Below the pieces are notes generated by a model. The model searched no databases, was not told where the DNA came from, and saw only the letters and a list, made by a program, of their open reading frames with translations. From the IMG/VR virus record IMGVR_UViG_3300001533_000890, positions 449 through 64,448 of that record: a DNA stretch of 64,000 nucleotides; one strand, written 5' to 3'. The translations under genes were made by a program, and so were the position numbers. The DNA is from a virus (Duplodnaviria; Heunggongvirae; Uroviricota; Caudoviricetes). How positions within the stretch are numbered: position 1 is the stretch's first letter; each line of letters starts with the position of its first letter. Shown piece by piece: positions 2,069 to 54,367 of the stretch.

Positions 2069-2082
2069 TAAAGGAGAAAACC

Positions 2083-2268
2083 ATGAAACAATGGTATCTG
2101 AGTCGAACCATTTGGGTAAACGCACTTACACTAGTCACAGGGACAATTGGCTATCTGGCCGCGCACGAGCTAGTAGCCGATAACTCCAGTCTTGTTGCAG
2201 CAATGGTTGCATTGCAAGGCGGCGTCAATATTGTTCTTCGATTCCTCACGGACAAAGCCATTAAGTAG
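2083..2268 (+). CDS. small hydrophobic membrane protein (holin-like candidate)
   Basis: 61 aa preceded by AAAGGAGAAAACC then ATG, with one or two predicted transmembrane segments. Confidence 0.4.
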   Translation: MKQWYLSRTIWVNALTLVTGTIGYLAAHELVADNSSLVAAMVALQGGVNIVLRFLTDKAIK

Positions 2269-2273
2269 TAGCC

Positions 2274-2810: not shown

Positions 2811-2814
2811 TACT

Positions 2815-3510: not shown

Positions 3511-3521
3511 GGAGGTAACAA

Positions 3522-4004: not shown

Positions 4005-4067
4005 CTTATTTCGGTGGGGCGGCTTACTGCCGCCCCACCGGCTGTATCATCGAGAATGAGGGAGAAT

Positions 4068-4883: not shown

Positions 4884-4898
4884 GTAAAGGAGTTTACT

Positions 4899-32425: not shown

Positions 32426-33043
32426 CTAGCGGCCGAATGATGTAAGTAAGGCTTTATAGAGCTTTGCCTCGGCAAGAGCGTCCGCCAACGCATCATGCGC
32501 CTGTCCAATCTCAATCCCAAATTTCTTGCACATAGCGCCAAGCCCTACATAGTTGAAAGGGATCGGGAGGCCGTGGAACGCGGCGGCATCATTAATGCTG
32601 ATAGCCAACAGCATGGAGTCCCGTGGATGTGGGTGAAAGAATTGTCCGAGTGATTCTAACCCAAGCCAATGTGCAAGAAAACCACGTTCAAATGCCCAGT
32701 TGTGTGCCAAAGGAACAAGCTGCCGACTAAAGGGCAGGGATAGCCGGGTGAACCATTCGTCAAAGAGATCGGCCGCTTTCCAACTATCCGGACACTCTGC
32801 TTGTAGCGTTTCAAGGTCTAGCCCGTGGATACTTTGTGCGTTTTTCTCTGCCCGATGTGGGAAAGATGGCGCAATGTTCATGTAAAAAGGCTGAACATTA
32901 GGTAAAGGTGTAAGTTCGCTGGATAAGGGAACCACGGCAATTTGAATAATCTCGTGGTATCCTGATAGCCGACCCGTTGTCTCTACATCTACTGCCACTA
33001 GCATGTTACCATTTAGAGTGACGAGTCCGTTGGGAGGTGTCAT
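32426..33043 (-). CDS. DnaQ-like DEDDh 3'-5' exonuclease
   Basis: Exo I VAVDVETTG, Exo II HNWAFERGF and Exo III HDALADALAEAKLY motifs. Confidence 0.7.
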   Translation of the reverse strand: MTPPNGLVTLNGNMLVAVDVETTGRLSGYHEIIQIAVVPLSSELTPLPNVQPFYMNIAPSFPHRAEKNAQSIHGLDLETLQAECPDSWKAADLFDEWFTRLSLPFSRQLVPLAHNWAFERGFLAHWLGLESLGQFFHPHPRDSMLLAISINDAAAFHGLPIPFNYVGLGAMCKKFGIEIGQAHDALADALAEAKLYKALLTSFGR

Positions 33044-33285
33044 GTTTGCTCCTTGTTAGCTTGAAGGTCACCACGCAAGCATGAATGTAGCCACCCTTCT
33101 GTTGCTGGGTCGGCAACATCAATGCCGCGTTTAATTAGCCAGGCCGTAAAGGCATCAATGAGCTTATCATTAGGATAATTACCCCCAATTATAATTGGAC
33201 TTGGCGTATCTGAAAGATCAGAAATTAGGTCACAAAGTGCTGCCGCGATAAAACGGCGCACGCCCTCTTTAGCTTGCGCCGACAT
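33040..33285 (-). CDS. hypothetical small protein
   Basis: 81-aa ORF with ATGA overlap. Confidence 0.35.
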   Translation of the reverse strand: MSAQAKEGVRRFIAAALCDLISDLSDTPSPIIIGGNYPNDKLIDAFTAWLIKRGIDVADPATEGWLHSCLRGDLQANKEQT

Positions 33286-33764
33286 TAACTGGCCTCCTTT
33301 GTATCTTGCGAACCATTAATTTTCGCTCGAACGGCAGGGTTTCGGTCAAGATAAGCCTCCACGTCAAAGGGCTTATTAAACTCGCCTAGAAAATCCGAAA
33401 AGCCCGTGTAGTCAGCGGGGCGGTCATCACCTTCTTTGTAAGTTACGACATAATGTCGTAGCATTAGTAAATTGCAGATAGCATGGTCAAGATGGTGTTC
33501 TCCTGACTCCTGGTCAATGTCTTCTCCGAGGAACCACCACTTAATAAAGTGACGAACGGCACAGTCCATTGGAACGGACCACGGCATCCCTTTGGCCCAA
33601 TTAAACTGCGCGTACTTCAAAAGACCGCCCATGAAAACGCGAGCCACGCCCGCTAGCAGGTGGAGCGGTACCTGAGTAAAGGAAACTTTGCCAGCGTTGG
33701 CGCGGGCACCTGAGCCTTTCTCAGTGCTGTTAACATTTCCGACGGCGTACGTAAGTTTATCCAC
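33285..33764 (-). CDS. hypothetical protein, possibly an all-alpha NTP-pyrophosphohydrolase-like fold
   Basis: 159 aa. The acidic cluster GEDIDQESGEHHLDHAICNLLML resembles MazG-like metal-binding helices. This is a weak call. Confidence 0.3.
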   Translation of the reverse strand: MDKLTYAVGNVNSTEKGSGARANAGKVSFTQVPLHLLAGVARVFMGGLLKYAQFNWAKGMPWSVPMDCAVRHFIKWWFLGEDIDQESGEHHLDHAICNLLMLRHYVVTYKEGDDRPADYTGFSDFLGEFNKPFDVEAYLDRNPAVRAKINGSQDTKEAS

Positions 33765-34559: not shown

Positions 34560-37500
34560 TTAGGTTGCCTTTAGGTTAATACAGCGGCCTTGGATACCGT
34601 AAGCAGGGGTATTTTCAGGCACCGTGATGTCCGTAAAACTCAAGTTACCGATGTATGTTCGGCCATGGTTAGACAAGCCAATGGGGTACTGCTCTGGCAT
34701 TGATTGTCGTAGGCGACGTTTGCTCCAATTTGCCTGCTCGAAAGCTGTTAGCGTTTCAAAGAACTTTTCGCTAAACTCTTTAAGAGTCACTTTCTCCCCG
34801 GGAACATAGTAACAATTCTCGGCCAGGAATTCTTCAAGAGGGTCCCGGTTTGCATCGGCGGCTTGGGCCTTACCTTCGGTGTCAATAATTGGCAGTCGAA
34901 GTCGGGAACCAGAAGATGGAAGTGAGAGGTCCATTAGCGTTGCCATGAAATGCGGCGCTTCTTCTTCAAGGGACCGCATCAATGCAGGCTTGGGGATTTC
35001 CTGAATCAAAGGGCTTACATACGTTGCTGTAATTCGCGTATCCCCTGGAAAGATTGGACAGTTATCCCTGCTGTTGGCAGTCTGGACAAAGTGTAAGCAG
35101 TTGCGCTGCTGGTAGACCTGCTGAAACTTCGCATGGATGCTAATGAACTGGGAGGTGGTCCATTCTTTGATCTTATTGTACACGCTAGCGCCGGCATGCG
35201 CAATATTGACTTCATCGACAACGCCGAGAACCGCGTTTGCAAGCTCCCCGTTAAAGTCGCCCGGGCTAGTAAGAGCCCGGTCTGCTTTGACAACGCCGCC
35301 CGTCACCAGCAAACTAATGGCTTCGTGAAAGATTGATTTGCCCGAGTTCTGCGGACCATACATAAACAGGTATGGAAGTGGTTCAAACGGCTCCCGCAGG
35401 AGGCATGAAATCCACGCGGTAAGATAATCTTTTCCGTTGAAAATGCCCCAGTCGCGGCACCACGAAGCATTCTGGACTCCGGGGGTTATATGCTCACCGC
35501 AGTGGGTAAGAATCATATCCCAGTGGGGGTGACGCGGCACTTCATCAGACTCAAGCTGGGCGGGCTGATGGACAAGTTGGGGTGCTCCGAGGTTCCATTG
35601 TCTACCCCCTGGGTATTCAGGGTGGAAAGGCTTGCAGACAAGTAACCACTGGTTAATAATAGCACGACCGAGAATCTGCGTCATAGCCAGCCCGGGCGGG
35701 GCCACAAGTGACAAGACACTGGCGACATTTTCTCGTGGGTGCTTAATCCACCCACCCTTTTTAACATTGACGCGCCAGCCCGCATCTGCCGCGCCCGGGG
35801 TGCGGCAAGAACGAACCAACGTATCATAGCGTGTGGCGTCATCTTCTTCGGAGTTTGTCTCTACGACAATGTTGAAGATTTTTACCCACTTGTTCTTCTT
35901 GCTCCCATTCCAGCCATCGAAACCGGTGTCGTTATCTCGTCGCGCCAGCTCAACGACCAAACGGCCGTCGGTGTTTTTTCGCAATCTTACAGCGCGGTCA
36001 GTGTACGTGTTGCCTTCCGGAAGAATGAGCTTTGAACCCAATGCTTCTACCGCAGCCTGTGCTTGGTCAGTTGACTTGAAGTGAAAACCCTTGCTGTTCT
36101 CAAGCTCAGCTCCATTAAAGGCCATGGCGGCACTTTGCAGGTCGGGGCGTTTATTGTATGCAATATGGGTCCAACCTTGACGGTCTTGCTGCCACAAGTC
36201 ATGCTCAACAGTTCCCTGCCCGAAACGAAATGCTAACCATGCTCCATCTGACTTCGGGATGAGAAAACAATTACCTGTCAGAATAAAATCTTCCAAGCAG
36301 AAACAACCCGTACCCGGCACAGTGCAGCAAAATACTTCTTCAACACCCGCTGGTTGAACGCTAACAACTCGCCAAAGTGATTGAGTTTTTCGGTTGCTTT
36401 TAGCTGCCTTAAATCGGTTTCGGTGTTTCTTAAGAAGGAAGAAGTCCTCTTTCAAAGAGGCTCGTTTTATAGTAGTCGTAAATACAGGGGTTTCAGGATT
36501 ATAGCCACTTGTATGGTGCCGCCACGTGACTTGGGTTGTTTCAATGCCTAGAATATGCGCAACATTCCGAAAATGTTCAATTGCTTCCTTATTTGTTGAC
36601 CGAATAACACAGACTCCTTCCTTGGAGACACAGCCATCGGCGGCGAAGTAACCAGCCAACCAGCCATACAGGTATGGCTTGTCGTAACTAAGGGGTACCA
36701 ATGACTTAAAATGATAAGGTAAATTAGTTACGCACACCCCGCCAATAGAATTAGTGATGGGTTGTTGAGGGTGCTCGGCAAAGAACTTCAACAACTCGGC
36801 GTCCTTTTTCCCGAATAAAGGAAGCTCTGATGTTCTGCGGTCTCCTCCATTCGACCCGTCACCCCACACCAGGCCATGTTGAATTCCGACCACACTGGGA
36901 CGGATCTTACCCCGTCGGGCAGGGGTTTGAACAAGTATATCATTAGGCTGCAAAGCCGTAGTAACCTTCTCTACTCTTTGGCCAAAATTCACTTTTGTTT
37001 TACGGTATCCCCACTTTTGGCGGCACACAAACCATCGGTGGTCACCAGTAGCTCGGAAAGTCTTAGTATGCCCGCGCCTATTTTTCAGCGTGATGGCGTA
37101 AGTCTTCTGTGGTCCGTATGACTTAAATGGGGCCTTCGTCCAAGCGCCTCGGCTTGTAACCACTTCGACTACTTTGCCAGCTAGCTCTGAGATAGGTTTA
37201 ACGCCTTCACGGGTGATGACCGGTGTGTCACCCGCAAGACAATTGGGTTGTCCAAGATCGTTGCCAGGCGACAATGTTTCAAAGAAACCCCGCATAGGTT
37301 GGCCGTGAGTTTTCCACTGGTCGTGGACCATCTTCAAGGCCCGGGTGTGCGTTTGCAGAAGGTGGTGATCTGGAATCCAAACGCAACTGGCACCAGTCAG
37401 CTCAAGGTCTGATATGATACGGCGATGGGTCTCGTCAAGGGGTACCTTTGGGTGGGCAGTGGTTAGCTCTGAAAGAGGGTCTTGTGCGTCAACTTCTTCC

Positions 37501-38279
37501 CCTGTATCTGTTACTCCAACAACGCGGACTTTGGTGGCCTTGCCCAAAATGACTTGTACTTGGTCCCTCCAATTGGGGGAAATATCGTCGCGACCCAGGT
37601 GTTCTGTTGCCGCCTTTAGCTGCATGAAGCCGGGCGTGCCAAACATTTTCTGGTGAGCCACCCACATGCAACCGCCGCACACGTCTAGGTGACTGCCAAA
37701 ATCAAACTCAGCATCGGTACTTAGCTTTCCTAAGATGACCCTAGCAATTGCTGCGTGTTCAGTATGGTTCGCTGTACGGGGCCTAGAAGCCTCGTCAAAC
37801 CACACGTAAAGATGAAGGCCCTTACCACCGGTAGACTTGATTACATCGACGTAGGGAAGCTCACAGGCAGCCCTACACACCTTCTCAAGCTGTTCCGGGG
37901 TGACCCCAGTGCCCGGGGCGTGGCTGGTAATTTCATCGAAGTCAAATCCAACAGCCACGGACTCTCTGGCAGTCCAGTTCCACCAAGTTGTGCCGACGCC
38001 CAACCAATGGCGTTCCAAGAGAAATGGTAACTCTCGATCTTTCCAGAATGGTTCGGCCATTGCGTTTTTGGGCCATCGAATATTGAACCACGTTTCGTTA
38101 CCATCTGTCCAGGTATTTCGTTTACCTTCAACCCGCGTGCCGTTACCCGGCGCAACTAAAAGCTGTGTCTCAAGGTGTCGCAGGTTGTCGAGCCATTGCT
38201 TAAAAAATGGAGGGTTGCTGTGCTTTGGCAGGACGTGATTGGTAAAGTATGTCTCAAAAGCATTAAGAATTGTTGCCAT
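34560..38279 (-). CDS. bifunctional AEP primase-polymerase / D5-like SF3 helicase, interrupted by an intein
   Basis: AEP motifs VGFDFDEITSH and STGGKGLHLYVWF. Walker A LFMYGPQNSGKS near the C-terminus. Intein boundaries QPN|CLAGDT and ILTGN|CF. Confidence 0.75.
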   Translation of the reverse strand: MATILNAFETYFTNHVLPKHSNPPFFKQWLDNLRHLETQLLVAPGNGTRVEGKRNTWTDGNETWFNIRWPKNAMAEPFWKDRELPFLLERHWLGVGTTWWNWTARESVAVGFDFDEITSHAPGTGVTPEQLEKVCRAACELPYVDVIKSTGGKGLHLYVWFDEASRPRTANHTEHAAIARVILGKLSTDAEFDFGSHLDVCGGCMWVAHQKMFGTPGFMQLKAATEHLGRDDISPNWRDQVQVILGKATKVRVVGVTDTGEEVDAQDPLSELTTAHPKVPLDETHRRIISDLELTGASCVWIPDHHLLQTHTRALKMVHDQWKTHGQPMRGFFETLSPGNDLGQPNCLAGDTPVITREGVKPISELAGKVVEVVTSRGAWTKAPFKSYGPQKTYAITLKNRRGHTKTFRATGDHRWFVCRQKWGYRKTKVNFGQRVEKVTTALQPNDILVQTPARRGKIRPSVVGIQHGLVWGDGSNGGDRRTSELPLFGKKDAELLKFFAEHPQQPITNSIGGVCVTNLPYHFKSLVPLSYDKPYLYGWLAGYFAADGCVSKEGVCVIRSTNKEAIEHFRNVAHILGIETTQVTWRHHTSGYNPETPVFTTTIKRASLKEDFFLLKKHRNRFKAAKSNRKTQSLWRVVSVQPAGVEEVFCCTVPGTGCFCLEDFILTGNCFLIPKSDGAWLAFRFGQGTVEHDLWQQDRQGWTHIAYNKRPDLQSAAMAFNGAELENSKGFHFKSTDQAQAAVEALGSKLILPEGNTYTDRAVRLRKNTDGRLVVELARRDNDTGFDGWNGSKKNKWVKIFNIVVETNSEEDDATRYDTLVRSCRTPGAADAGWRVNVKKGGWIKHPRENVASVLSLVAPPGLAMTQILGRAIINQWLLVCKPFHPEYPGGRQWNLGAPQLVHQPAQLESDEVPRHPHWDMILTHCGEHITPGVQNASWCRDWGIFNGKDYLTAWISCLLREPFEPLPYLFMYGPQNSGKSIFHEAISLLVTGGVVKADRALTSPGDFNGELANAVLGVVDEVNIAHAGASVYNKIKEWTTSQFISIHAKFQQVYQQRNCLHFVQTANSRDNCPIFPGDTRITATYVSPLIQEIPKPALMRSLEEEAPHFMATLMDLSLPSSGSRLRLPIIDTEGKAQAADANRDPLEEFLAENCYYVPGEKVTLKEFSEKFFETLTAFEQANWSKRRLRQSMPEQYPIGLSNHGRTYIGNLSFTDITVPENTPAYGIQGRCINLKAT
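36270..37241 (-). mobile_element. intein (324 aa) with LAGLIDADG homing endonuclease in the primase-helicase
   Basis: Begins CLAGDTPV. Contains LAGYFAADGCV (LAGLIDADG-type block). Ends with Asn followed by a +1 Cys (TGN|C). Confidence 0.75.
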
Positions 38280-38809: not shown

Positions 38810-39796
38810 ATGAGCAGATTTGTGAAAATGAGCTACCATAAGTATAGCATGCAATTGCAGGTTCTTTCACTTGACCGGGTTCGCCCGCCCAGCTTTTTAC
38901 TCCGCCCAGTTCGTACTGACTCGGTAGAGTTCTTAGAAATGCTGGATTCAATCCGGGATAATGGACTTTGGCAGCCAATCCTAGTCCGCTCCGTGGGCGA
39001 TTACTTTGAAATCGTAGAGGGCAACTACCGATACACCTGCTGTAAACAGCTTCGCTACACAGAAATCCCCGCCGTAGTTCGCGTTCTCAGTGACTCCGAA
39101 GTTTTGGTCGCTCAATTACAGGCAAATGGTATTCGGCCCGAGACAACACCGGTCGAGTTTGGCGAGCGGTTGGCACGGCTTTTGCACCTTAATCCTGACA
39201 TAACTATTTCGCGACTGTCTATCTTGATTAGGAAGAGTCCAACATGGATTCGCAAAATTCTCAGCCTTCGGCGTTTACACGCAGACTGTCAACCCCTGGT
39301 GAAAGCTGGACAAATTCCACTCGAATCGGCCCACACGCTATCACGGCTGCCGCATGCAAGTCAGCCAGCTTACTTGGACCTGGCGGCAACACTCCCAGTC
39401 AGGGAGTTCAAGCCTCTGATACACGCCGAAATTAAACGGCTGAGAGAAAATTGTCAGGGTCGCTATATTGAGAACCACCCGGTCAACCAAGAGAAACCTG
39501 TTCCGTATCTTCGGAAAGTTACAGACATAAAGGCTGAATACAGAAACCCCCAAGTCGCTGGCCCGGTGTTGATTAAAACAAACGCCAAAACAGTAATGGA
39601 CGGCTGGAAAGCTTGTTTGGCATGGATTTTGCACCTTGATCCGGATGGTCTTGCAGCCCAAGAAAAGATGATCGTTGCCCGTCGCGGTCAACAGCAACGT
39701 GCTGAGGAACGACGGAGAGCAGAGCGTCAGCAGCTACGAAAGCTAAGACAGGCTGAGGCTGATTTTCAACCCCCTAATCCGAGGACCGATTTATGA
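38810..39796 (+). CDS. ParB/Srx-domain protein (ParB-like nuclease or partition protein)
   Basis: ParB N-terminal domain LQVLSLDRVRPP...QPILVRSVGDYFEIVEGNYRYTCCKQL. Start may be an internal ATG at 38828 or 38849. Confidence 0.6.
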   Translation: MSRFVKMSYHKYSMQLQVLSLDRVRPPSFLLRPVRTDSVEFLEMLDSIRDNGLWQPILVRSVGDYFEIVEGNYRYTCCKQLRYTEIPAVVRVLSDSEVLVAQLQANGIRPETTPVEFGERLARLLHLNPDITISRLSILIRKSPTWIRKILSLRRLHADCQPLVKAGQIPLESAHTLSRLPHASQPAYLDLAATLPVREFKPLIHAEIKRLRENCQGRYIENHPVNQEKPVPYLRKVTDIKAEYRNPQVAGPVLIKTNAKTVMDGWKACLAWILHLDPDGLAAQEKMIVARRGQQQRAEERRRAERQQLRKLRQAEADFQPPNPRTDL

Positions 39797-41987: not shown

Positions 41988-42178
41988 TGTTTTACATCAC
42001 CGTATTGGCCGGGCGTCGTCCCGCTGTTGTGACCGACGGTCGTGGTCGTGCCAGAAGTTTTCCGAAAGCCAAGAAAGCTTACAATTTTGTCGAAGGCAGA
42101 CCCTATCTACGGGCAATGAAACCACGCGTAGTGGAAAGTCTTAACTCGCAACTAGCTACTTTCAAGGTTGACCTATGA
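41987..42178 (+). CDS. hypothetical small protein
   Basis: 63-aa ORF, ATGA-coupled to the methyltransferase gene. Confidence 0.25.
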   Translation: MFYITVLAGRRPAVVTDGRGRARSFPKAKKAYNFVEGRPYLRAMKPRVVESLNSQLATFKVDL

Positions 42179-42954
42179 ACCAGCCGCCATCGACTCTCGA
42201 TATTTTCCAAGGCGACAACCTCAAAATCTTGTCTCGTTTCGACCGACCATGTTTTGATTTGATTTACATGGATCCGCCTTTTAATACGGGCCGTACTCAA
42301 AAGGCTGCCGAGGGTACGTATGCCGATACTTTTGAGGACTACTCAGCGTTTCTTGAACCACGTCTTAAAGCGGCCTTTGAGCTACTTGATGCGGCGGGGA
42401 CTTTGTGTGTTCATTTGGACTACCGGGAAGTCCACTACGTAAAAGTCTTGCTGGACCGGCTTGTTGGCCGCGAGTGTTTTCTTAACGAAATTATCTGGGC
42501 GTATGACTTTGGTGGTCGGGCAAAGAAGCGCTGGTCTGCCAAACACGACACTCTTTTACTCTATGTAAAGGACGCGAAGGAGTATACATTTCGCTTTGAT
42601 GACATGGAACGCATCCCCTACATGGCCCCCGGGCTGGCGGGTCCGGAAAAAGCTGCGAGGGGGAAAACTCCGACCGACGTGTGGTGGCACACAGTTGTCC
42701 ACACCCGGGGGAAAGAACGTTGCGGCTACCCCACTCAGAAACCAGTCGGCTTGCTTAATCGATTGATAACAGTCCACACACATCCCGGCGACCTTGTGTT
42801 GGATTGTTTTGCCGGGTCTGGCACAACCGGCGAAGCAGCTCTTAAAAACGGACGCAGCGCCGTACTCATTGACTCAAATCCGGACGCGATTAAAGTAATG
42901 ATGCGCCGTCTTGAAGAATATTCTCCTCGCCTCCACCCGGAATCCCATGCCTGA
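42175..42954 (+). CDS. DNA methyltransferase, beta-class (N6-adenine or N4-cytosine)
   Basis: Motif IV LIYMDPPFNTGR occurs before motif I CFAGSGTTGEAALKNGRSAVLIDSNPDA. Confidence 0.7.
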   Translation: MNQPPSTLDIFQGDNLKILSRFDRPCFDLIYMDPPFNTGRTQKAAEGTYADTFEDYSAFLEPRLKAAFELLDAAGTLCVHLDYREVHYVKVLLDRLVGRECFLNEIIWAYDFGGRAKKRWSAKHDTLLLYVKDAKEYTFRFDDMERIPYMAPGLAGPEKAARGKTPTDVWWHTVVHTRGKERCGYPTQKPVGLLNRLITVHTHPGDLVLDCFAGSGTTGEAALKNGRSAVLIDSNPDAIKVMMRRLEEYSPRLHPESHA

Positions 42955-45724
42955 ACTTCAAACACTTAAACTGATAACTGAAACGGCTTCTGGCACACTT
43001 GTTAAGCAGCCCGTCACTATTCGTGTTGTAAGAAACCGGATTGAATTTGTCAAGTCTCCCTTTGGTTTGAAGGATGAGATTAAGGCAATGAAGGGTTCAA
43101 AGTGGCATGGTTTTGAAGACCCGCCACGAAAGATTTGGAGTGTAGCAGACTGCGACCGCAACCGTTTTCAACTCGCCTACATGGCGGGTGAAAATCCTTA
43201 TGAATGGTGGGACCGCCCTCTTATCGAGCATGAGTATGAGCGGCCACTGCGTGAACACCAGAAGTTGATGGCAAACTTCGGCCTTACGTACCATTTTGGT
43301 ATCTTTGCGGCCGAGATGGGATGTATTGCCGGGGATGCAACCGTCCATGTGAATCGCGCGGGCAAGAGTTTTTCAATAACTCTTGCAGAGCTATGTTACA
43401 AGTTTCATGGCGGGGCCACTTACAACGGACCTACAACGCTAAATCGCCCTTCTAAACGAGTCTGGGATACATCTATCGACACCTTTGTACGGGGGTTTCG
43501 GGGCGAAGCGTTTGGTCTAACAAAGATCATTGATGTAGTTTTCCAGGGCCACAAGAAAGTTAAGTTGTTGAGGACTAAATCCGGCAAAGTGCTGCGGCTT
43601 ACTCCTGACCACGAGCTGTGCATCAATGCTTACCGGTATGGCACATTCAAACCTCTCAATGAATTGATGCCCGGGGATTATATCATGGTGGCCGCTCCTG
43701 ATGGATTTGCCCGGCAGTCGCGGGCCGTGCCGCAAACGCCTCCTAGCCGGTTGACAAAAACAACGCAACAAGGTCTGGGGCATTTTATTGACAACGACGG
43801 GTATGTTCGTGTTGGAGGTTTGAAAGGCCACCCCCGCGCCAACCGATCGAATCAGGTGTATGAACACATTCTCGTAGTAGAGGAACTGTTAGGTCGACGG
43901 GTCACAGTAAAAGAGCAGATTCACCATTTGAATCAGCAGCGGTGGGATAATCGGCCGGAGAACTTGGTGGTCTGCACAGCAAGAGAGCATGCAGACTTTC
44001 ATAGTGGTAATAAGGTTCACTTACACAATGGTACTAACTCATCTGCGTTCTGTTTTTGTTTTGACCCAATCGCGTCAATCGAGGATGGTGGCACCGTTGA
44101 TGTATACGACATAAAGTGTGAGGGGCCCTACCACAACTTCATCGCTAATGGTATTGTAGTACACAATTGCGGCAAGACCCTTAGTGCTATAGAGGTTATG
44201 GAACAGTCGGGCTACAATGATTGGATTTGGGTTGGCCCCAAGGCGGGCCTCCGCGCGGTTGAACGTGAGTTTCATAAGTGGGGACTTACTGATGTAAACC
44301 TCGATCTATTTACGTATGAAGCTCTGACCTCTAAGATGAAGAATTGGACACCAGGCGACCTTCCCCCTCACGGTGTCATCTTTGACGAGTCAAGCAGACT
44401 TAAGAATCACCATAGCCAACGGGCCCAGGCCGCGCAGGCATTAGCTGACGGCATCCGGGCCGAGTATGGTCGCGATGGGTTCGTTATTCTAATGACCGGC
44501 ACTCCATCCCCTAAGTCTCCTGTAGATTGGTGGTCCCAGGCTGAGATTGCGTGCCCTGGTTTTCTGCGCGAAGGTGACATGAGGGCTTTTGAACGAAGGC
44601 TGGGCATCTTTGTAGAGAAAGAAACATCTCAAGGCAAGCACCTTCAACGTGTAACATGGTTGGATACAGAAGAAAAGTGTGCTATTTGCGGTGGCCTTGA
44701 GGATGAAGAACAGCATCAATTTGAATACGCCGAGGATTACCACCGATGGAAACCAAGCGTCAATGAAGTTGCGTTACTGCACGAACGCCTGGACGGATTG
44801 GCCCTTGTAATGCACAAGAAGGATTGGCTCGACCTTCCCGAGAAACAATACCGAGTTGTGCAGTGTGAAGTTACACCCACTATTGACCGCGTAGCCAAGG
44901 CTCTGGTTAAACTGGCGCCTAATGCCATGACAGGTTTGACGTGGTTGCGGGAGCTAAGCGATGGATTTCAATATAGAGAAGAGGTTCAGGGGACGGAGCC
45001 CTGCCCCGCATGCGCGAACACAGATACCCCGGGTAAGTTGCCAGTTTGGGTTGATCCAGATGATCCTGACCGAACTTTTGAAATGGTAGACATGCTGGAC
45101 CCTGAGTATGTTTCGACCTTATCAAAAGAACTGCAAACCTGCAAAACATGCGATGGTACATTAGAAGTGCCTCATAAGGTGCGAGTTATTCGAGAGGTTC
45201 CGACGCCTAAAGAGAAGGCCACAATTGAACTGCTAGAAGAGAACGAAGAAACCGGACGCTTGGTTATTTTTGCAGGGTTCACCGGCTCTCTTGATCGGCT
45301 GGGAAAGCTATGCCAAAAGCAGCGCTGGGCAGTGATCCGGGTGGATGGCCGTGGGTGGAAAGTTTGGGATAGCGCTGGCAACCCAATAGTCGTTGAAAAT
45401 CCACTGGATTATTGGGCCGACTTAGAACACAACCCTCGTGTTGTTTTTGTCGCACACCCAAAGTCAGGCGGTATGAGTTTAACTCTCACCGAAGCGTCTA
45501 TGGCGGTATTCTACTCCAATGATTTCTCACCAGAGTCGAGATCCCAGGCGGAAGATCGAATTCATAGAATTGGTGTGGATGAGAACAAAGGTGCCACTAT
45601 TGTTGACCTTATCCATTTACCTACTGATGAGCATGTACGTAGTATTCTCCGTGAGAATCGCAGGCTTGAATTAATGACTCTTGGCGATATTGCCGCAACC
45701 GTTGGCGTGGAGACTGATGAATGA
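42946..45724 (+). CDS. SNF2-family helicase/ATPase with an intein inserted in the Walker A P-loop
   Basis: The exteins AAEMG|...|CGKTLSA rejoin as GCGKT. DExH box VIFDESSRLKNHH. C-terminal helicase domain with a Zn-ribbon. Confidence 0.7.
43322..44167 (+). mobile_element. intein (282 aa) with HNH homing endonuclease, inserted in the helicase P-loop
   Basis: Starts CIAGDATV, ends IVVHN with a +1 Cys. HNH motif EQIHHLNQQRWDNRPENLVVCTAREHADFH. Confidence 0.75.
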
Positions 45725-47774: not shown

Positions 47775-47897
47775 GGACCCCGTGGTGTAATGGTAACACA
47801 CGTTTATGCTTCACCACACCTTGCCTTAACGGGCCGACGGTAAAGCGTTATTGAACTGTTAATTCCGTAATCCAGGTTCGAGTCCTGGCGGGGTCGT
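47775..47897 (+). ncRNA. tRNA-like non-coding RNA (YrlA/Y RNA-like candidate). It has acceptor, D and T arms, but about 70 nt replace the anticodon arm.
   Basis: 5' GACCCCG pairs with 3' CGGGGTC. D-arm GTGTaatggtaACAC. T-arm CCAGGttcgagtCCTGG. No canonical anticodon stem. Internal helix GCTTCACC/GGTAAAGC. Confidence 0.5.
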
Positions 47898-48045
47898 TTG
47901 TCGGGCCGCTTGCAATGGGTTATCGTTTTGGATAAGACCCCATTGCAAACACTTGTCCGCCACCTTACAAACGGGCCGCTTGTGTCGGGTTATTGGTTAA
48001 TATTATCCCGACCCAGTTACTTGCCCGTTGTTCTTTAACTGGAGA
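47898..48045 (+). promoter_or_regulatory. two stem-loops sharing a GGGCCGCTTG direct repeat, in the leader of the Ro60 gene or the 3' part of the ncRNA
   Basis: Hairpins TTGCAATGGG(loop)CCCATTGCAA (47910-47948) and GTCGGG(loop)CCCGAC. Confidence 0.35.
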
Positions 48046-48050
48046 ATAGA

Positions 48051-49655
48051 ATGGCAAACTATGCGAGTCACCTTGTTACGGCAACCCAGCGGGAACCCTT
48101 GTTTGATCGTAAACAGATTAAGAACGATGCTGGAGGTTACGTTTTTAAGGTTGAGCCCTTTCAGGTTCTCCAACGGTTTCTCATTCTAGGCTGTGACGGC
48201 GGAACTTATTACACGGGCGAGGCGCAGATGACTCGCCGCATGGCGAAAGTTTTACAAGAATGCGCCCGACGGTCTGTTGAGTCAACTATCACCACCATAC
48301 TTCAAGCGCTGCCCCGCGCAATTAAGCCAACCCCTGCGGTTTTTTGTCTTGCTTACTTGTCTAGTGGTAAGTGCGGCCCGCAGGCGGCGCGGGCGGCTTT
48401 GGCCGAAGTTAACACGGTTTGTCGCACCGCTTCGCATCTCTTTACGTTCGTGGAGCAAACAACGAAATTCCGGGGCTGGGGACGCGGCCTGCGGAAAGCC
48501 GTGGCGGGCTGGTATACGGCTAAGGACCCACAGTCTTTGATGTATCAGGTTACGAAGTATGGTCAACGAGAGGGCTACACGCATCGTGACCTCCTTCGTT
48601 TGGCACATCCTTACTCCCCTGAGTTGAATGAAGTTTTTCGGTACATTTGCAGCGGAGAGTACACCAAGAATGACACCCTTGGTTCATGGCTATCCGTGAT
48701 TAATAGTCTGTCCGAAGCCACAAGTGCCAAGTCTGTTGCGAAGCATATCCGGGCTTGGCGATTGGTTCGCGAAGTTATTCCAACCAAGTGGCTCAATTCT
48801 TCCTTGGTGTGGGAGGCGCTGCTTGATAGGATGCCATATACAGCCTTGGTTCGCAACCTTGGGAAGATGACCGCTGTTGGGCTACTAACGCCTTTTAGCG
48901 ATGCTTCTAAACTGGTTTGTGAGCGGCTGCGGTCGGCGGGGCAGGCTCTTCATCCTGCTGCATTGTTGCTGGCAAGCACCACCTATCAAAAAGGTCAAGG
49001 CGTCAGGGGCAACTTGTCTTGGAACCCTGACCAGAATATTTGTGAGGCACTTGAGGACGCATTTTACGGCGCTTTCGACACTGTGACACCCGCTGGCAAG
49101 AACTTTATGCTGGCAATCGACGTTTCTGGCTCCATGGGCTGGCGCGGTTTTGACTTCCTGGGTTCTATTGCTGGCACACACCTTAAAGCTTACCAAGCCG
49201 CCGCTGTTATGGCGCTGGCACAGACGCGGTCCGAGCCATGGTGCCTTACGACGGCATTTACTGGCCGGCAGGGTAACAGACGCGCCGGTGGTCTTAAGCT
49301 CGTGGAAAATTTCGGCCGACACTGCCGTTTACAGCCCGCTTTGGATGAGCTTAGGCGAATTCCGGTTGGTCCAACAGACTGCGCACTTCCAATGATTTAC
49401 GCCCGGGAAAATAAATTACCGGTTGACACTTTTGTTGTCTACACTGATAACGAAAGCTGGCAGGGTAAAACGCACCCTTGTCGAGCCCTCGAAGATTATC
49501 GGCAAGCCACGGGTCGCGATGCCAAATTGGTTGTTTGTGCATTGACTGCTACTGAGTATTCGGTAGCTGACCCGGATGATCCCGGAATGCTTGATGTTGT
49601 AGGTTTTGACCCCACTTGCCCATCCGTTATCTCTCGTTTTGCAGGAGAACTTTAA
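48051..49655 (+). CDS. rsr: Ro60/Rsr-like ribonucleoprotein (TROVE domain with C-terminal vWA/MIDAS)
   Basis: 534 aa, the typical Ro60 size. vWA MIDAS motif FMLAIDVSGSMGW near residue 360. An adjacent tRNA-like ncRNA is characteristic of Rsr and Y RNA loci. Confidence 0.65.
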   Translation: MANYASHLVTATQREPLFDRKQIKNDAGGYVFKVEPFQVLQRFLILGCDGGTYYTGEAQMTRRMAKVLQECARRSVESTITTILQALPRAIKPTPAVFCLAYLSSGKCGPQAARAALAEVNTVCRTASHLFTFVEQTTKFRGWGRGLRKAVAGWYTAKDPQSLMYQVTKYGQREGYTHRDLLRLAHPYSPELNEVFRYICSGEYTKNDTLGSWLSVINSLSEATSAKSVAKHIRAWRLVREVIPTKWLNSSLVWEALLDRMPYTALVRNLGKMTAVGLLTPFSDASKLVCERLRSAGQALHPAALLLASTTYQKGQGVRGNLSWNPDQNICEALEDAFYGAFDTVTPAGKNFMLAIDVSGSMGWRGFDFLGSIAGTHLKAYQAAAVMALAQTRSEPWCLTTAFTGRQGNRRAGGLKLVENFGRHCRLQPALDELRRIPVGPTDCALPMIYARENKLPVDTFVVYTDNESWQGKTHPCRALEDYRQATGRDAKLVVCALTATEYSVADPDDPGMLDVVGFDPTCPSVISRFAGEL

Positions 49656-49852: not shown

Positions 49853-50451
49853 TTTGGTTTATAAGTGACACACACTTTGGGCATGCACGTTTGATGGAGT
49901 CGCCCGAGCGCGCCGGGCGGTTCCCATCTCTTGCTGACCTGGACGCGGCAATTATTGACGGTATTAATCAATACGTCGGCCGCAATGACGTCCTTTATCA
50001 CCTTGGCGACTTTTGTTGGGGTGCCCGTTTGATAGGGCACTATCGGCAGCGCCTTAAAGTACGGACCCTGCACGTTATCCGTGGGAACCACGACCCGGCC
50101 AGTCTTGGGAGGCATTGCTCTACAATGCGTGATATGGCCGTGGTGAAGTTTCGACAGCCGGGGTGGTCGCACTCGATTAAATTTCACCTGTGTCATTTTC
50201 CCATCGTTAATTGGGCGTCGATGCACCGTGGCGGCGGGCATTTGTACGGCCACTGTCACGGCCGGTCGGAAGCTGACTTGAACCGCATCCACCCGGGTCG
50301 TCGCGCCCTCGATGTTAGCGCGGACAATCTTTATCGGTTGTTTGGTAGCTATCGACCAATCAGTTTGGATGATCTAATTGAACGGTGGGACTTGGCAGAA
50401 ACCCGTGATTATTTCCCCGGCCCGTTTGAACACAATAAGGATACACAATGA
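49849..50451 (+). CDS. calcineurin-like metallophosphoesterase (candidate RNA 2',3'-cyclic-phosphate or 3'-phosphate end-healing enzyme)
   Basis: Motifs ISDTHFGH, LGDFCWG, IRGNHD and GHCHGR. Confidence 0.6.
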   Translation: MIWFISDTHFGHARLMESPERAGRFPSLADLDAAIIDGINQYVGRNDVLYHLGDFCWGARLIGHYRQRLKVRTLHVIRGNHDPASLGRHCSTMRDMAVVKFRQPGWSHSIKFHLCHFPIVNWASMHRGGGHLYGHCHGRSEADLNRIHPGRRALDVSADNLYRLFGSYRPISLDDLIERWDLAETRDYFPGPFEHNKDTQ

Positions 50452-51524
50452 GTAATACCCCTGTTGAAATCACCCCTGTCTTAGCTGTTGAACAGCACCC
50501 CAACGCGGACCGTTTGGAATTGGTGCGCGTTATTACCACGCAGTTCATCTCCCAAAAAGGTATTTACCAACAGGGTGATCTTTGTGTCTATTTCCCGCCA
50601 GATGTTATGATTCCTGAAACATTGGCGGAAGAGCTAGGTGTTGCTGCCTACTTAAAGCACTCAATCTACCCCGGCGATTCGTTCAAATCAAAGTGTCGCG
50701 TTGGTGCCATCCGACTTCGTAGCATTGCATCATTTGGTTTCGGACTACCCGTGGATAAAGTGTCCGCGGCGCGGCCGGGTTGTTATGACGATGGAGCAGA
50801 CGTGTCCGAGCTTGTCGGGGCCGTTAAATATCAACCTCCCGAACTAGAAACAATGCGTGGCTCCGACACGGTACGGTCTCCCGAGGCGTTTCACAAGTAC
50901 ACCAGTATCGAACACTATTACCGTAATGCCATCGCGCTGCCAGAAGGCACGCCCGTCCGCGTGACCGAGAAGCTACACGGAACGAACTCCCGAGTCGGCC
51001 TAATCTACGACAACGGTTGGGAGTTCATGTGTGGCACCCACCACCGACGGGTCAAGTCGGAGAATGCTCGCGGACGGAAGTCCATCTACTGGAAGCCCTT
51101 AACTGACGGGATGAAAGCTCTCTTATCGCACCTGTCACAAGAGACAAACAATGTTATTGTCTTTGGCGAGATTTTCGGGCGCAAGGTCCAGCCAATGGAC
51201 TACGGGGCTGGACCGGCCGAGGGTTATCGAGTTTTTGACATTTCAGTAAACGGGGACTACCTGGATTGGCACAGTATTTGCACCTTTTGTAGGAAGTTCG
51301 GCATCCCAGTCGTGCCGCTACTACACTCCGGACCATTTTATACGGGCCTGGTCGATGAATTTGTAAGCGGGCCAACATCTGTTGCCCACTCCGAGAATAT
51401 TGCGTGCAAATTCAAAGGACGAGAGGGGATTGTGATAACCCCCTTGACTGAAACTTATAGTCCCGAACTTTGTGGCCGTTTGATTCTGAAAGCCGTCAGT
51501 CCTGATTACTATGAGGCTATGTAA
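50448..51524 (+). CDS. ATP-dependent RNA ligase (Rnl2-like KxHGxN nucleotidyltransferase) with an N-terminal Trbp111/EMAP-like tRNA-binding OB domain
   Basis: The N-terminus AVEQHPNADRLELVRV...GDLCVYFPPDV resembles the tRNA-binding domain of MetRS C-terminus/Trbp111. Ligase motif I VTEKLHGTNSRVG. Confidence 0.6.
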   Translation: MSNTPVEITPVLAVEQHPNADRLELVRVITTQFISQKGIYQQGDLCVYFPPDVMIPETLAEELGVAAYLKHSIYPGDSFKSKCRVGAIRLRSIASFGFGLPVDKVSAARPGCYDDGADVSELVGAVKYQPPELETMRGSDTVRSPEAFHKYTSIEHYYRNAIALPEGTPVRVTEKLHGTNSRVGLIYDNGWEFMCGTHHRRVKSENARGRKSIYWKPLTDGMKALLSHLSQETNNVIVFGEIFGRKVQPMDYGAGPAEGYRVFDISVNGDYLDWHSICTFCRKFGIPVVPLLHSGPFYTGLVDEFVSGPTSVAHSENIACKFKGREGIVITPLTETYSPELCGRLILKAVSPDYYEAM

Positions 51525-54294: not shown

Positions 54295-54367
54295 TGCGCG
54301 GTAGCTCAATTGGTAGAGCGTCCGACTGTTAATCGGATGGTTGCAGGTTCGAGCCCTGCCCGCGCAG
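54295..54367 (+). tRNA. tRNA-Asn (anticodon GTT)
   Basis: Cloverleaf: acceptor TGCGCGG/CCGCGCA, D-arm GCTCaattggtaGAGC, anticodon arm TCCGAcTGTTAaTCGGA, T-arm GCAGGttcgagcCCTGC. 73 nt, no encoded CCA. Confidence 0.85.

What the first reader, a model, noticed from the sequence alone, without database searches (positions are those of the whole stretch)
36270..37241. LAGLIDADG intein inside the AEP primase / SF3 helicase gene
Canonical splice junctions are present (N-extein ...QPN, intein CLAGDT...ILTGN, +1 Cys). An internal LAGYFAADG block marks a homing endonuclease. The intein lies between the primase-polymerase and helicase modules of the main replication protein.
Basis: seen in the sequence. 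Interest (0 to 1): 0.6.

Follow-up and report, generated by a model that had tools for sequence, protein, structure and literature searches.

The report
Mobile intein in phage primase-helicase
The phage's main replication gene carries a real 324-residue self-splicing intein with its own homing endonuclease; this is an ordinary kind of selfish element, and its one unusual feature is a catalytic-residue pattern that mixes two known intein classes.

Summary
Window 36270-37241 (minus strand) encodes a 324-aa in-frame insert, ...GQPN|CLAGDT...ILTGN|CFLIP..., in a 1239-aa ORF (34560-38279).

It is an intein:
- TIGR01445 intein_Nterm and Pfam LAGLIDADG_3 both score above their curated cut-offs.
- An AlphaFold model (pLDDT 90) matches PI-SceI and PI-PfuI.
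- 107 of 120 homologues of the host protein lack the insert and read ...KPN|CF... without a break.
- Presence or absence changes at least 12 times on the extein tree. Decayed copies (133/139-aa mini-inteins, a 42-aa endonuclease deletion) occupy the same site.

The host is an AEP primase fused to a D5/SF3-like helicase, in a tailed phage probably infecting Planctomycetota.

- There are two LAGLIDADG motifs, not one.
- The penultimate residue is Gly, not the usual His.
- The intein keeps the class 1 residues (Cys1, Thr B:7, Cys+1) and also carries the complete Trp/Cys/Thr triplet that marks class 3 inteins. All 72 family members examined, in varied host proteins, carry Cys1, Trp B:12 and Cys F:4; 66 of 72 have Thr G:5.

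I file it as class 1 type. Which cysteine starts splicing cannot be settled from sequence.

It is a new member of a known kind, of modest interest.

The parts
34560..38279 (-). Host gene: 1239-aa precursor (139.1 kDa) of an AEP primase / D5-SF3-like helicase
   Evidence: Single ORF. DUF5906 at aa 973-1080, 53 bits. A profile of the family hits the NrS-1 primase C-terminal region in PDB. The AF2 model of the spliced protein matches NrS-1 CTR, ASFV PrimPol, MPXV E5 and the SaPI5 primase-helicase.
37242..38279 (-). N-extein, aa 1-346, AEP primase region ending in the invariant Asn346
   Evidence: Invariant D113, D115, S149, G152, G154, H156, D199 and N346 in 53 homologues. Weak LigD_Prim-Pol and AEP-TOTE Pfam hits in 14 and 3 family members.
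37932..37955 (-). AEP motif I (AVGFDFDE)
   Evidence: Coordinates; D113 and D115 invariant. Naming it motif I rests on established AEP knowledge.
37806..37838 (-). AEP motif II (KSTGGKGLHLY)
   Evidence: Coordinates; S149, G152, G154 and H156 invariant.
37662..37694 (-). AEP motif III (SHLDVCGGCMW). A relative (L044) carries a different intein at this point; the site is empty in the window.
   Evidence: Coordinates; D199 invariant. L044 reads ..KVDI|CVPSDT...FVAHN|CGGNMW.
36270..37241 (-). Intein, 324 aa (36.3 kDa, pI 9.8), precursor aa 347-670
37203..37241 (-). Splicing block A (CLAGDTPVITREG) with the Cys1 nucleophile
   Evidence: TIGR01445 match to intein residues 1-71. Cys1 is invariant in 72 of 72 family members.
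37026..37067 (-). Splicing block B (TKTFRATGDHRWFV): Thr B:7, His B:10, Trp B:12
   Evidence: T65, H68 and W70 invariant.
36387..36914 (-). LAGLIDADG homing endonuclease domain (approximately intein residues 110-285)
   Evidence: LAGLIDADG_3 34.2 bits and Hom_end 19.8 bits. The AF2 secondary structure shows helix-strand repeats. Foldseek hits to PI-SceI, PI-PfuI and I-DmoI. pN 0.177 against pS 0.797 versus L002.
36855..36893 (-). LAGLIDADG motif 1 / block C (VVGIQHGLVWGDG), catalytic Asp128
   Evidence: G123, G127 and G129 invariant; D128 at least 90%.
36633..36680 (-). LAGLIDADG motif 2 / block E (KPYLYGWLAGYFAADG), catalytic Asp202
   Evidence: L195, A196, G197, A200, D202 and G203 invariant.
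36291..36338 (-). Splicing block F (EVFCCTVPGTGCFCLE) with Cys305 at F:4
   Evidence: Aligns to the Ssp DnaB intein block F, with Cys opposite its Asp. C305 is invariant in 72 of 72.
36267..36290 (-). Splicing block G plus the +1 residue (DFILTGN|C): Thr G:5, Gly G:6, Asn324 G:7, Cys+1
34560..36269 (-). C-extein, aa 671-1239 plus stop: middle domain, P-loop helicase and C-terminal domain
35334..35357 (-). Walker A (GPQNSGKS)
   Evidence: Coordinates; G656 and K657 (spliced numbering) invariant.
35211..35225 (-). Walker B (GVVDE)
   Evidence: Coordinates; E699 invariant.

Best explanation
Window 36270-37241 encodes a bifunctional class 1 type intein, made of a Hint splicing domain and a double-motif LAGLIDADG homing endonuclease. 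It is inserted in frame in the AEP primase / D5-like helicase gene of a tailed phage. The gene is translated as a 139-kDa precursor. The inferred steps are as follows. Cys1 forms a thioester at the N-terminal junction, assisted by Thr65 and His68 of block B. The N-extein is passed to Cys+1. Asn324 cyclises and releases the 36-kDa intein. An S-to-N shift then leaves a native Asn346-Cys347 peptide bond in a 103-kDa primase-helicase. The penultimate Gly, and Cys305 at block F position 4 in place of the usual Asp, are conserved family traits rather than damage. Cys305 most likely fills the coordinating role that Asp plays in other class 1 inteins. The freed intein is inferred to cut intein-less alleles of the same gene around ...AAGCCGAAT|TGCTTT... 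during co-infection or in prophages, and repair copies the intein in (homing). Shown here: the insert, its domains, its precise absence from most homologues, its patchy distribution, and purifying selection on it. Inferred: that it splices, which cysteine starts the reaction, and that the endonuclease is active.
For: - Profiles: intein_Nterm and LAGLIDADG_3 both score above their curated cut-offs, and blocks F and G align to the Ssp DnaB intein.
- Fold: the AF2 model has pLDDT 90.2 and pTM 0.88. Its best Foldseek matches are PI-SceI, PI-PfuI and the TliVMA intein (E 1e-11 to 1e-12), followed by I-DmoI and DnaB mini-inteins.
- Empty sites: 107 of 120 homologues read ..KPN|CF.. without a break, and 13 carry an insert at exactly this bond. 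Filled and empty alleles can share 92.9% (P0117/P0088) or 90.2% (P0042/P0039) extein identity. At least 12 presence/absence changes are needed on the extein tree.
- Homing-cycle stages at the same site: full-length inteins, an Asp-to-Ala change in motif 1 (P0022), a 42-aa endonuclease deletion (P0117), and 133- and 139-aa mini-inteins (P0029, P0041).
- Transfer: the intein is more conserved than the extein between distant hosts, for example 71.8% against 40.5%.
- Selection: pN/pS is about 0.2 across the intein, including the endonuclease domain, against the syntenic phage L002.
- Catalytic residues C1, T65, H68, N324, C+1, D128 and D202 are all present. C1, T65, H68 and D202 are invariant across the family; N324, D128 and Cys+1 are nearly so.
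- Class 1 reading: Cys1 is invariant in 72 of 72 relatives at 35-45% identity, Thr B:7 in 72 of 72 and Cys+1 in 71 of 72. Class 3 inteins lack a position-1 nucleophile, generally lack Thr B:7, and have Ser/Thr at +1 (PMC2807308, PMC6195587).
- Precedent: the mycobacteriophage Bethlehem RDF intein reads C1...EVWCLRVP...HLTGN|S. It splices experimentally, and mutating its penultimate Gly to His made splicing worse (PMC5050341).
- The family HMM scores a canonical class 1 intein (L044) at 42 bits but the class 3 prototype at only 9.5 bits.
Against: - No experiment: splicing and DNA cleavage are inferred from sequence and models only.
- The penultimate His that usually assists Asn cyclisation is missing.
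- Pfam Intein_splicing scores 23.9 bits, below its 35.8 cut-off.
- The complete WCT triplet (Trp70, Cys305, Thr322) is the published signature of class 3 inteins. Cys305 and Trp70 are as invariant as Cys1, so a role for Cys305 as a nucleophile is not excluded.
- The insertion site is not a recognised catalytic motif of the host protein, although Asn346 is invariant.
Confidence: 0.8

Rival explanations
1. The element is an intein, but it splices by a class 3 or hybrid route. Cys305 (F:4) attacks the N-terminal junction to form a block F branched thioester, either directly or after Cys1, and then hands the N-extein to Cys+1.
For: The full WCT triplet is present: Trp at B:12, Cys at F:4, Thr at G:5. 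Trp and Cys are invariant in 72 of 72 relatives and Thr is present in 66 of 72. In 2009 the triplet co-varied very strongly with the class 3 mechanism, and three WCT inteins with Ser1 or Cys1 were left unresolved (PMC2807308). One proven class 3 intein (Bvi IcmO) has Cys+1 (PMC5222942). The C-terminus ILTGN resembles the class 3 prototype's ILTHN.
Against: Cys1, Thr B:7 and Cys+1 are class 1 features and are essentially invariant. If Cys1 were dispensable it should drift, as position 1 does in class 3 inteins. Operational definitions of class 3 require no Cys at position 1 (PMC7891396). [quoted passage not shown] Grafting WCT onto a class 1 intein did not confer class 3 splicing (PMC7664689). 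The family HMM gives the class 3 prototype only 9.5 bits.
Confidence: 0.13
2. The splicing domain works but the homing endonuclease is dead. The intein would then persist in this lineage only by vertical descent.
For: Endonuclease decay is seen at this same site in relatives: D-to-A in P0022, a deletion in P0117, and mini-inteins in P0029 and P0041. Between the window and L002 the intein has diverged about as much as the extein (68.6% against 73.3% nucleotide identity), which fits vertical descent within this sub-lineage.
Against: Both catalytic Asp residues and both motifs are intact in the window copy. The endonuclease domain is under purifying selection, with pN 0.177 against pS 0.797. The endonuclease domain is modelled with high confidence.
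Confidence: 0.2
3. The insert is a decayed, non-splicing intein, or a domesticated internal domain retained in the mature protein.
For: There is no penultimate His, Pfam Intein_splicing is below its cut-off, and non-splicing intein pseudogenes exist (PMC3196547).
Against: All nucleophiles and assisting residues are conserved. The Hint halves are under strong purifying selection, with pN 0.065 in the C-terminal splicing region. No other primase-helicase was identified among the window ORFs annotated. A 36-kDa insert at an invariant residue would probably disable the protein. Gly-penultimate phage inteins are known to splice (PMC5050341).
Confidence: 0.05
4. The region is not mobile at all but an ordinary lineage-specific domain of these primase-helicases.
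For: None beyond the fact that the frame is continuous.
Against: The region is absent from 107 of 120 homologues, with exact junction continuity. It sits at the same bond in patchily related alleles. Its closest relatives are inserts in unrelated proteins: DnaG primases, ribonucleotide reductases, RtcB, terminase and Cas4-like nucleases.
Confidence: 0.01

Closest known systems
Class 1 inteins with a LAGLIDADG endonuclease, e.g. PI-SceI (yeast VMA1) and PI-PfuI (Pyrococcus RNR)
   Same: Architecture is the same: a Hint domain split by a double-motif LAGLIDADG endonuclease, with Cys1, block B TxxH, C-terminal Asn and Cys+1. These are the best structural matches to the AF2 model (TM-score on the query 0.63-0.74).
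   Different: Only 11-13% sequence identity. The window intein is smaller (324 aa against 454), has Gly rather than His as the penultimate residue, and has Cys rather than Asp at F:4.
Mycobacteriophage Bethlehem RDF (gp52 in AY500153) intein, an experimentally splicing class 1 phage intein
   Same: It also has Cys1, Cys at F:4 (EVWCLRVP) and the C-terminus ..LTGN with a penultimate Gly. It is also a phage intein with a LAGLIDADG endonuclease, and its Gly is functional, since G316H impairs splicing (PMC5050341).
   Different: B:12 is Val rather than Trp, +1 is Ser rather than Cys, and the host protein is different. Overall similarity is negligible (8 bits to the family HMM).
Class 3 inteins (prototype: MP-Be 'DnaB' intein in Bethlehem gp11; Msm DnaBi1)
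   Same: The complete Trp B:12 / Cys F:4 / Thr G:5 triplet, a phage replication or packaging host gene, and a similar ..ILT(G/H)N C-terminus.
   Different: Class 3 inteins lack a position-1 nucleophile, generally lack Thr B:7 and have Ser/Thr at +1 (PMC2807308, PMC6195587). The window intein has Cys1, Thr B:7 and Cys+1. There is no specific sequence affinity (9.5 bits).
Uncharacterised metagenomic inteins of the same family in DnaG-type primases, ribonucleotide reductases, RtcB, terminase and Cas4-like proteins (P0121-P0240)
   Same: 35-43% identity over the whole 324 aa, the same block pattern C1/T/H/W/C/T/(G or H)/N/C+1, and the same endonuclease.
   Different: The host genes and insertion sites differ, and many come from Actinobacteria-labelled contigs. 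None is in an AEP/D5-like primase-helicase. The best hit among cultured phages is only 31.5% (Thermobifida phage P318 RNR).
Host protein: NrS-1 phage primase-polymerase/helicase, poxvirus D5/E5, ASFV C962R PrimPol, SaPI5 primase-helicase
   Same: An N-terminal AEP domain followed by an SF3-type P-loop helicase. Foldseek E 4e-13 to 1e-7 and an HMM hit to the NrS-1 helicase region.
   Different: 9-15% identity. The N-terminal half has no Pfam family above threshold. The family appears largely confined to Planctomycetota prophages and uncultured viral contigs.

Membership tests
Intein (protein-splicing Hint element) | In-frame insert at a precise peptide bond that is absent from orthologues, which are contiguous across the site | tested here: met
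   107 of 120 homologues read ..KPN|CF.., and 13 carry an insert at the same bond. Filled and empty pairs reach 93% extein identity.
Intein (protein-splicing Hint element) | N-terminal Cys/Ser nucleophile and block A | tested here: met
   Cys1. TIGR01445 intein_Nterm scores 28.4 bits against a cut-off of 24.5. Invariant in 72 of 72.
Intein (protein-splicing Hint element) | Block B Thr-x-x-His | tested here: met
   T65-G-D-H68, invariant.
Intein (protein-splicing Hint element) | C-terminal Asn followed by Cys/Ser/Thr at +1 | tested here: met
   Asn324|Cys. Asn in 71 of 72 and Cys+1 in 71 of 72.
Intein (protein-splicing Hint element) | Penultimate His (G:6). This is typical but not defining: documented inteins splice without it. 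| tested here: not met
   Gly323; Gly in 54 of 72 family members and His in 12 of 72. Phage inteins with Gly, Lys or Ser at this position are known, and the Bethlehem RDF intein splices better with Gly than with His (PMC5050341).
Intein (protein-splicing Hint element) | Hint fold | tested here: met
   AF2 pLDDT 90.2. Foldseek matches to PI-SceI, PI-PfuI, Ssp and Npu DnaB, and Mxe GyrA inteins.
Intein (protein-splicing Hint element) | Autocatalytic excision with ligation of the exteins | not testable with these tools
   Requires expression and detection of the 102.9-kDa and 36.3-kDa products from the 139.1-kDa precursor (masses).
LAGLIDADG homing endonuclease (monomeric, double-motif) | Two LAGLIDADG motifs, each ending in an acidic catalytic residue | tested here: met
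   GLVWGD128G and AGYFAAD202G. D202 is invariant and D128 is at least 90% conserved.
LAGLIDADG homing endonuclease (monomeric, double-motif) | Profile match above the curated threshold | tested here: met
   PF14528 LAGLIDADG_3 scores 34.2 bits against a cut-off of 22.5.
LAGLIDADG homing endonuclease (monomeric, double-motif) | Endonuclease fold | tested here: met
   Foldseek matches to I-DmoI (E about 1e-5) and to the endonuclease domains of PI-SceI and PI-PfuI.
LAGLIDADG homing endonuclease (monomeric, double-motif) | Site-specific cleavage of the intein-less allele | not testable with these tools
   A candidate target is available from L001...GGCAAGCCGAAT|TGCTTTATGATC....
Class 3 inteins | No Cys/Ser/Thr nucleophile at intein position 1 | tested here: not met
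   Cys1, invariant in 72 of 72. Definitions in PMC2807308 and PMC7891396.
Class 3 inteins | Trp B:12 / Cys F:4 / Thr G:5 triplet | tested here: met
   W70, C305, T322.
Class 3 inteins | Ser or Thr at +1 (one known exception has Cys) | tested here: not met
   Cys+1. The exception is Bvi IcmO (PMC5222942).
Class 3 inteins | Membership of the monophyletic class 3 clade | tested here: inconclusive
   Only a crude test was run. The family HMM scores the class 3 prototype at 9.5 bits against 42 bits for a canonical class 1 intein. No phylogeny of splicing blocks was built.
Class 3 inteins | Obligate Cys F:4 nucleophile and a block F branched intermediate | not testable with these tools
   Needs C1A and C305A mutants and a thiol-lability assay.
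AEP primase + SF3/D5-like helicase (host protein) | AEP catalytic motifs I (DxD/E), II (sGxGxH) and III (hD) | tested here: met
   GFDFDE, STGGKGLH and LDV, with D113, D115, S149, G152, G154, H156 and D199 invariant. Pfam support is only weak: LigD_Prim-Pol in 14 of 53 members, best E 0.007.
AEP primase + SF3/D5-like helicase (host protein) | P-loop NTPase of the D5/SF3 type | tested here: met
   DUF5906 scores 53 bits. HMM hit to the NrS-1 helicase at E 4e-8. Foldseek matches to NrS-1 CTR, MPXV E5 and ASFV PrimPol.

The most novel reading that the evidence does not exclude
This intein, together with the other family members examined (72 full-length in all), represents an uncharacterised clade that keeps every class 1 residue (Cys1, Thr B:7, Cys+1) and also has the full class 3 WCT triplet, usually with a penultimate Gly. 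The clade could splice through a three-cysteine relay (Cys1 to Cys F:4 to Cys+1). It could also be the surviving form of the phage-borne class 1 ancestor from which class 3 inteins are proposed to have arisen. With six cysteines near the active site (C1, C305, C306, C313, C315, C+1), splicing might also be gated by redox state, making activation of the phage primase conditional.
Probability: 0.12. Interest if true: 0.6.

Novelty: new member of a known kind. Interest (0 to 1): 0.33.

Why it matters
For annotation, the mature replication protein is the 915-aa spliced product, not the 1239-aa ORF. The same phage has a second intein in its helicase, so two replication enzymes need splicing before they can work.

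For intein biology, this gene family offers a compact natural series at one site: empty sites, full inteins, damaged endonucleases and 133/139-aa mini-inteins. A second, independent insertion site lies in AEP motif III. All of this occurs in phages and prophages of Planctomycetota, for which I know of no described inteins.

The conserved combination of Cys1, WCT and Cys+1 with a penultimate Gly makes this a convenient test of whether the WCT triplet alone predicts mechanism. The natural mini-inteins could be of practical interest as splicing tools. None of this overturns current understanding.

Tried and rejected
- No close relative among cultured phages. Megablast of 15 kb of the window found nothing. 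tblastn with the spliced protein found only a 27% match over 14% of the query, in Serratia phage JS26. The intein's best cultured-phage hit is 31.5%, in the Thermobifida phage P318 RNR.
- Sequence search of PDB with the intein profile was nearly empty. The fold search was needed instead.
- I tried three ways to read Tori & Perler 2011 and Brace et al. 2010, and the supplement of Tori et al. 2010. [quoted passage not shown]
- The literature search for 'TOPRIM intein', 'Tfu2914' and 'JS614' found nothing. My recollection that those are the WCT inteins with a position-1 nucleophile is therefore unverified and is not used as evidence.
- dN/dS could not be computed because synonymous sites are saturated (pS 0.7-0.87). 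I report pN and pS only.
- L116 and L118 looked like extra-long, possibly intein-bearing alleles in the viral scan, but both proved to be ordinary 917-aa genes.
- I could not measure distances between Cys1, Cys305 and Asn324 in the model, because model coordinates are not exposed.
- I could not identify the middle domain (spliced residues 347 to about 560) that the intein interrupts.
- The idea that the insert is a normal domain of the family was rejected.
Full report
**1. Observation**

The window has one long ORF on the minus strand, 34560..38279, of 1239 aa. Residues 347-670 map exactly to window 37241..36270, the coordinates of the finding. The junctions read ...DLGQPN|CLAGDTPV... and ...EDFILTGN|CFLIPK.... 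The insert is 324 aa with 47.7% GC, against 51.7% for the rest of the gene.

**2. It is an intein**

Profile evidence:
- TIGR01445 intein_Nterm matches intein residues 1-71 at 28.4 bits (cut-off 24.5).
- Pfam LAGLIDADG_3 matches residues 193-243 at 34.2 bits (cut-off 22.5).
- Pfam Intein_splicing is below its cut-off, at 23.9 against 35.8 bits.
- The C-terminal 35 residues align to blocks F and G of the Synechocystis DnaB intein.

Structural evidence:
- An AlphaFold2 model built on 26 family sequences is confident (pLDDT 90.2, pTM 0.88).
- Its best Foldseek matches in PDB are the bifunctional inteins PI-SceI, PI-PfuI and TliVMA (E 7e-12 to 3e-11, TM-score on the query up to 0.74).
- Next come the free-standing LAGLIDADG enzyme I-DmoI and the mini-inteins Ssp DnaB, Npu DnaB and Mxe GyrA.

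**3.

I searched with the in-silico spliced protein (915 aa) and examined the 120 best homologues.
- 107 are about 905-940 aa, lack the insert, and read ...(K/T)PN|CF... without a break.
- 13 carry an insert at exactly this bond.
- Asn346 is invariant, and Pro345 and Phe348 are nearly invariant, in 53 aligned homologues. The intein therefore sits at a strongly conserved point, as inteins usually do.

**4. Mobility**

- Almost every intein-bearing allele has an intein-less allele as its nearest extein relative. Examples are P0117/P0088 at 92.9% and P0042/P0039 at 90.2%.
- Parsimony on a neighbour-joining extein tree needs at least 12 presence/absence changes for the 13 filled alleles.
- Between distantly related hosts the intein is far more conserved than the extein, for example 71.8% against 40.5% for P0040/P0120. 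The means over 45 pairs are 67% and 54%.
- The same site holds successive stages of the homing cycle:
  - full inteins of 319-324 aa;
  - a copy with the motif 1 Asp changed to Ala (P0022);
  - a copy with a 42-aa endonuclease deletion (P0117);
  - two natural mini-inteins of 133 and 139 aa (P0029, P0041).
- Two syntenic relatives were retrieved. L001 has an empty site (...GGCAAGCCGAAT|TGCTTTATG...) and L002 has a filled site.
- Against L002, synonymous sites are saturated but non-synonymous change is low throughout the intein: pN 0.167 overall, 0.177 in the endonuclease domain and 0.065 in the C-terminal splicing region, with pS about 0.8. This indicates purifying selection on both functions.

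**5. Anatomy and the unusual residue pattern**

The 13 same-site inteins share these blocks:

| Block | Sequence | Key residues |
|---|---|---|
| A | C1-L-A-G-D-T | Cys1 |
| B | A-T-x-D-H-R-W-F | Thr B:7, His B:10, Trp B:12 |
| C | GIQHGLVWGDG | LAGLIDADG motif 1, Asp128 |
| E | YGWLAGYFAADG | LAGLIDADG motif 2, Asp202 |
| F | EEVFCCTVP | Cys at F:4, where DnaB inteins have Asp |
| G | EDFILTGN\|C | Thr G:5, Gly G:6, Asn G:7, Cys+1 |

The Trp/Cys/Thr combination is the 'WCT triplet' published as the signature of class 3 inteins. In those inteins the block F Cys, rather than residue 1, attacks the N-terminal junction (PMC2807308, PMC5222942). Class 3 inteins, however:
- lack a nucleophile at position 1;
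- generally lack the block B Thr (PMC6195587);
- have Ser or Thr at +1, with one exception.

The window intein has Cys1, Thr B:7 and Cys+1.

A search with the intein alone found full-length relatives at 35-43% identity. They are inserted in unrelated proteins: DnaG-type primases, class I and class III ribonucleotide reductases, RtcB, terminase, a PHP-domain polymerase and Cas4-like nucleases. Counts over 72 full-length family members:

| Position | Residue counts (of 72) |
|---|---|
| 1 | Cys 72 |
| B:7 | Thr 72 |
| B:10 | His 72 |
| B:12 | Trp 72 |
| F:4 | Cys 72 |
| G:5 | Thr 66 |
| G:6 | Gly 54, His 12 |
| G:7 | Asn 71 |
| +1 | Cys 71 |

The pattern is therefore a stable family trait, not decay.

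**6. Class 1 or class 3?**

I favour class 1, for these reasons.
- Cys1 is invariant across 72 sequences at only 35-45% identity. That argues it is needed, whereas position 1 is free to vary in class 3 inteins.
- Thr B:7 and Cys+1 are class 1 features.
- Operational definitions of class 3 require no Cys at position 1 (PMC7891396).
- Cys is the second most common residue at F:4 overall (PMC4031507).
- Grafting WCT onto a class 1 intein did not produce class 3 splicing (PMC7664689).

I also read the mycobacteriophage Bethlehem genome directly.
- Its class 3 prototype, in gp11, reads P1...SHGW...VKCIGI...ILTHN|T.
- Its RDF intein, in gp52, reads C1...EVWCLRVP...HLTGN|S, that is Cys1, Cys at F:4 and Thr-Gly-Asn.
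- The RDF intein was shown experimentally to splice, and mutating its penultimate Gly to His made splicing worse (PMC5050341).

This gives a tested precedent for Cys1, Cys F:4 and the Thr-Gly-Asn C-terminus; it lacks Trp at B:12 and has Ser at +1.

The family HMM scores a canonical class 1 intein (from L044) at 42 bits, but the class 3 prototype at 9.5 bits and the RDF intein at 8 bits. There is thus no specific affinity to class 3.

A class 3 or relay mechanism is not excluded. I give it about 0.13.

**7. The host protein and the insertion site**

- Pfam finds only DUF5906, a P-loop domain (aa 973-1080 of the precursor).
- A profile of 53 intein-less homologues hits the helicase region of the NrS-1 phage primase in PDB (E 4e-8).
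- An AF2 model of the spliced protein (pLDDT 86.8) matches the NrS-1 C-terminal region, full-length ASFV PrimPol, monkeypox E5 and the SaPI5 primase-helicase.
- The N-terminal third has the AEP motifs GFDFDE, STGGKGLH and LDV, with all key residues invariant. Pfam support is weak: LigD_Prim-Pol in 14 of 53 members and AEP-TOTE in 3.
- The intein lies 147 residues after motif III and about 305 residues before Walker A. It sits at the end of a 22-residue coil (325-346) and the first residue of strand 347-351, which opens a middle domain whose function I could not identify.

'Between the primase and helicase modules' is a fair summary.

One relative (L044) carries a different, fully canonical class 1 LAGLIDADG intein at a second site, inside AEP motif III..KVDI|C...FVAHN|CGGNMW. 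The gene family therefore has at least two insertion points.

**8. Genome context**

- The window is a tailed-phage genome, with portal, major head, tape-measure, sheath-like, DNA polymerase and helicase genes.
- It has no close cultured relative.
- Homologues of the host protein lie mostly in Planctomycetota MAGs (Pirellulales, Thermoguttaceae, Planctomycetaceae), often inside contigs of megabase size. A further 418 lie in IMG/VR viral contigs. The likely hosts are therefore Planctomycetota, and many relatives are prophages.

**9. Verdict**

The finding is correct: this is a genuine, probably active and mobile intein. Inteins in phage replication genes are well known, so it is a new member of a known kind. 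Points of modest interest:
- the conserved hybrid class 1 plus WCT residue pattern with a penultimate Gly;
- the full series of homing-cycle stages at one site, including natural mini-inteins;
- a second insertion site in the same gene family;
- the Planctomycetota phage setting, with two inteins in one genome.

Splicing, the initiating nucleophile and endonuclease activity all remain to be tested experimentally.

Noticed in passing
window 43322-44167 (+), inside ORF 42911-45724: There is a second intein in the same phage. It is a 282-aa insert in the SNF2-like helicase...AAEMG|CIAGDAT...GIVVHN|CGKT..., splitting the Walker A GxGKT motif. It carries an HNH_3 endonuclease (aa 317-361) rather than LAGLIDADG. 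Pfam Intein_splicing scores 50.2 bits (cut-off 35.8). The relative L002 also has it; in L001 the helicase gene runs off the locus and no intein domain is on record for the part seen.
   Followed up: partly
L044 (genome contigs CALKWP010000106.1), ORF 1910-5699: A homologue of the primase-helicase carries a different, canonical class 1 LAGLIDADG intein (363 aa; F:4 Asp...FVAHN|C) at a second site, inside AEP motif III (..KVDI|CGGNMW). The contig is binned as a Methanomassiliicoccales MAG, which may be a misbinning of a viral contig.
   Followed up: partly
window 47897-48031 (+) and ORF 48051-49655 (+): The phage encodes a Ro60/TROVE protein (TROVE plus vWA_Ro60; phrog_850). Immediately upstream are two tandem sub-threshold Rfam hits to RF01656, nematode stem-bulge sRNAs, which to my knowledge are Y-RNA homologues: 31.4 bits (E 0.0018) and 24.6 bits (E 0.12), against a gathering score of 38. 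The second folds better than shuffled controls (z -2.8). These are candidate phage Y-like RNAs. An RNA ligase gene follows at 50448-51524.
   Followed up: partly
window 33285-33764 (-): The gene cluster downstream of the primase includes a PF18909 dATP/dGTP diphosphohydrolase N-terminal domain protein (87 bits). To my knowledge this family includes MazZ of phages with 2-aminoadenine genomes. No PurZ-like gene was seen among the window ORFs I scanned, and the window covers only 64 kb of a 78.7-kb contig.
   Followed up: no
window 54295-54367 (+): A single tRNA-Asn (GTT) gene lies in the replication and nucleotide-metabolism region.
   Followed up: no
L001 9797-10285 (+): In the intein-less relative, a free-standing HNH_3 endonuclease gene sits between the dGTP_diPhyd and RNase_T genes. 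The window has no such gene at that position. This suggests a further mobile endonuclease in the module.
   Followed up: no
window 38810-39796 (+), 42175-42954 (+), 32426-33043 (-): A ParB_N-domain protein lies just upstream of the primase gene on the opposite strand, an N6/N4 DNA methylase precedes the helicase, and an RNase_T-family exonuclease lies downstream of the primase gene. The order is conserved in L001 and L002, except that no methylase is on record in L001.
   Followed up: no
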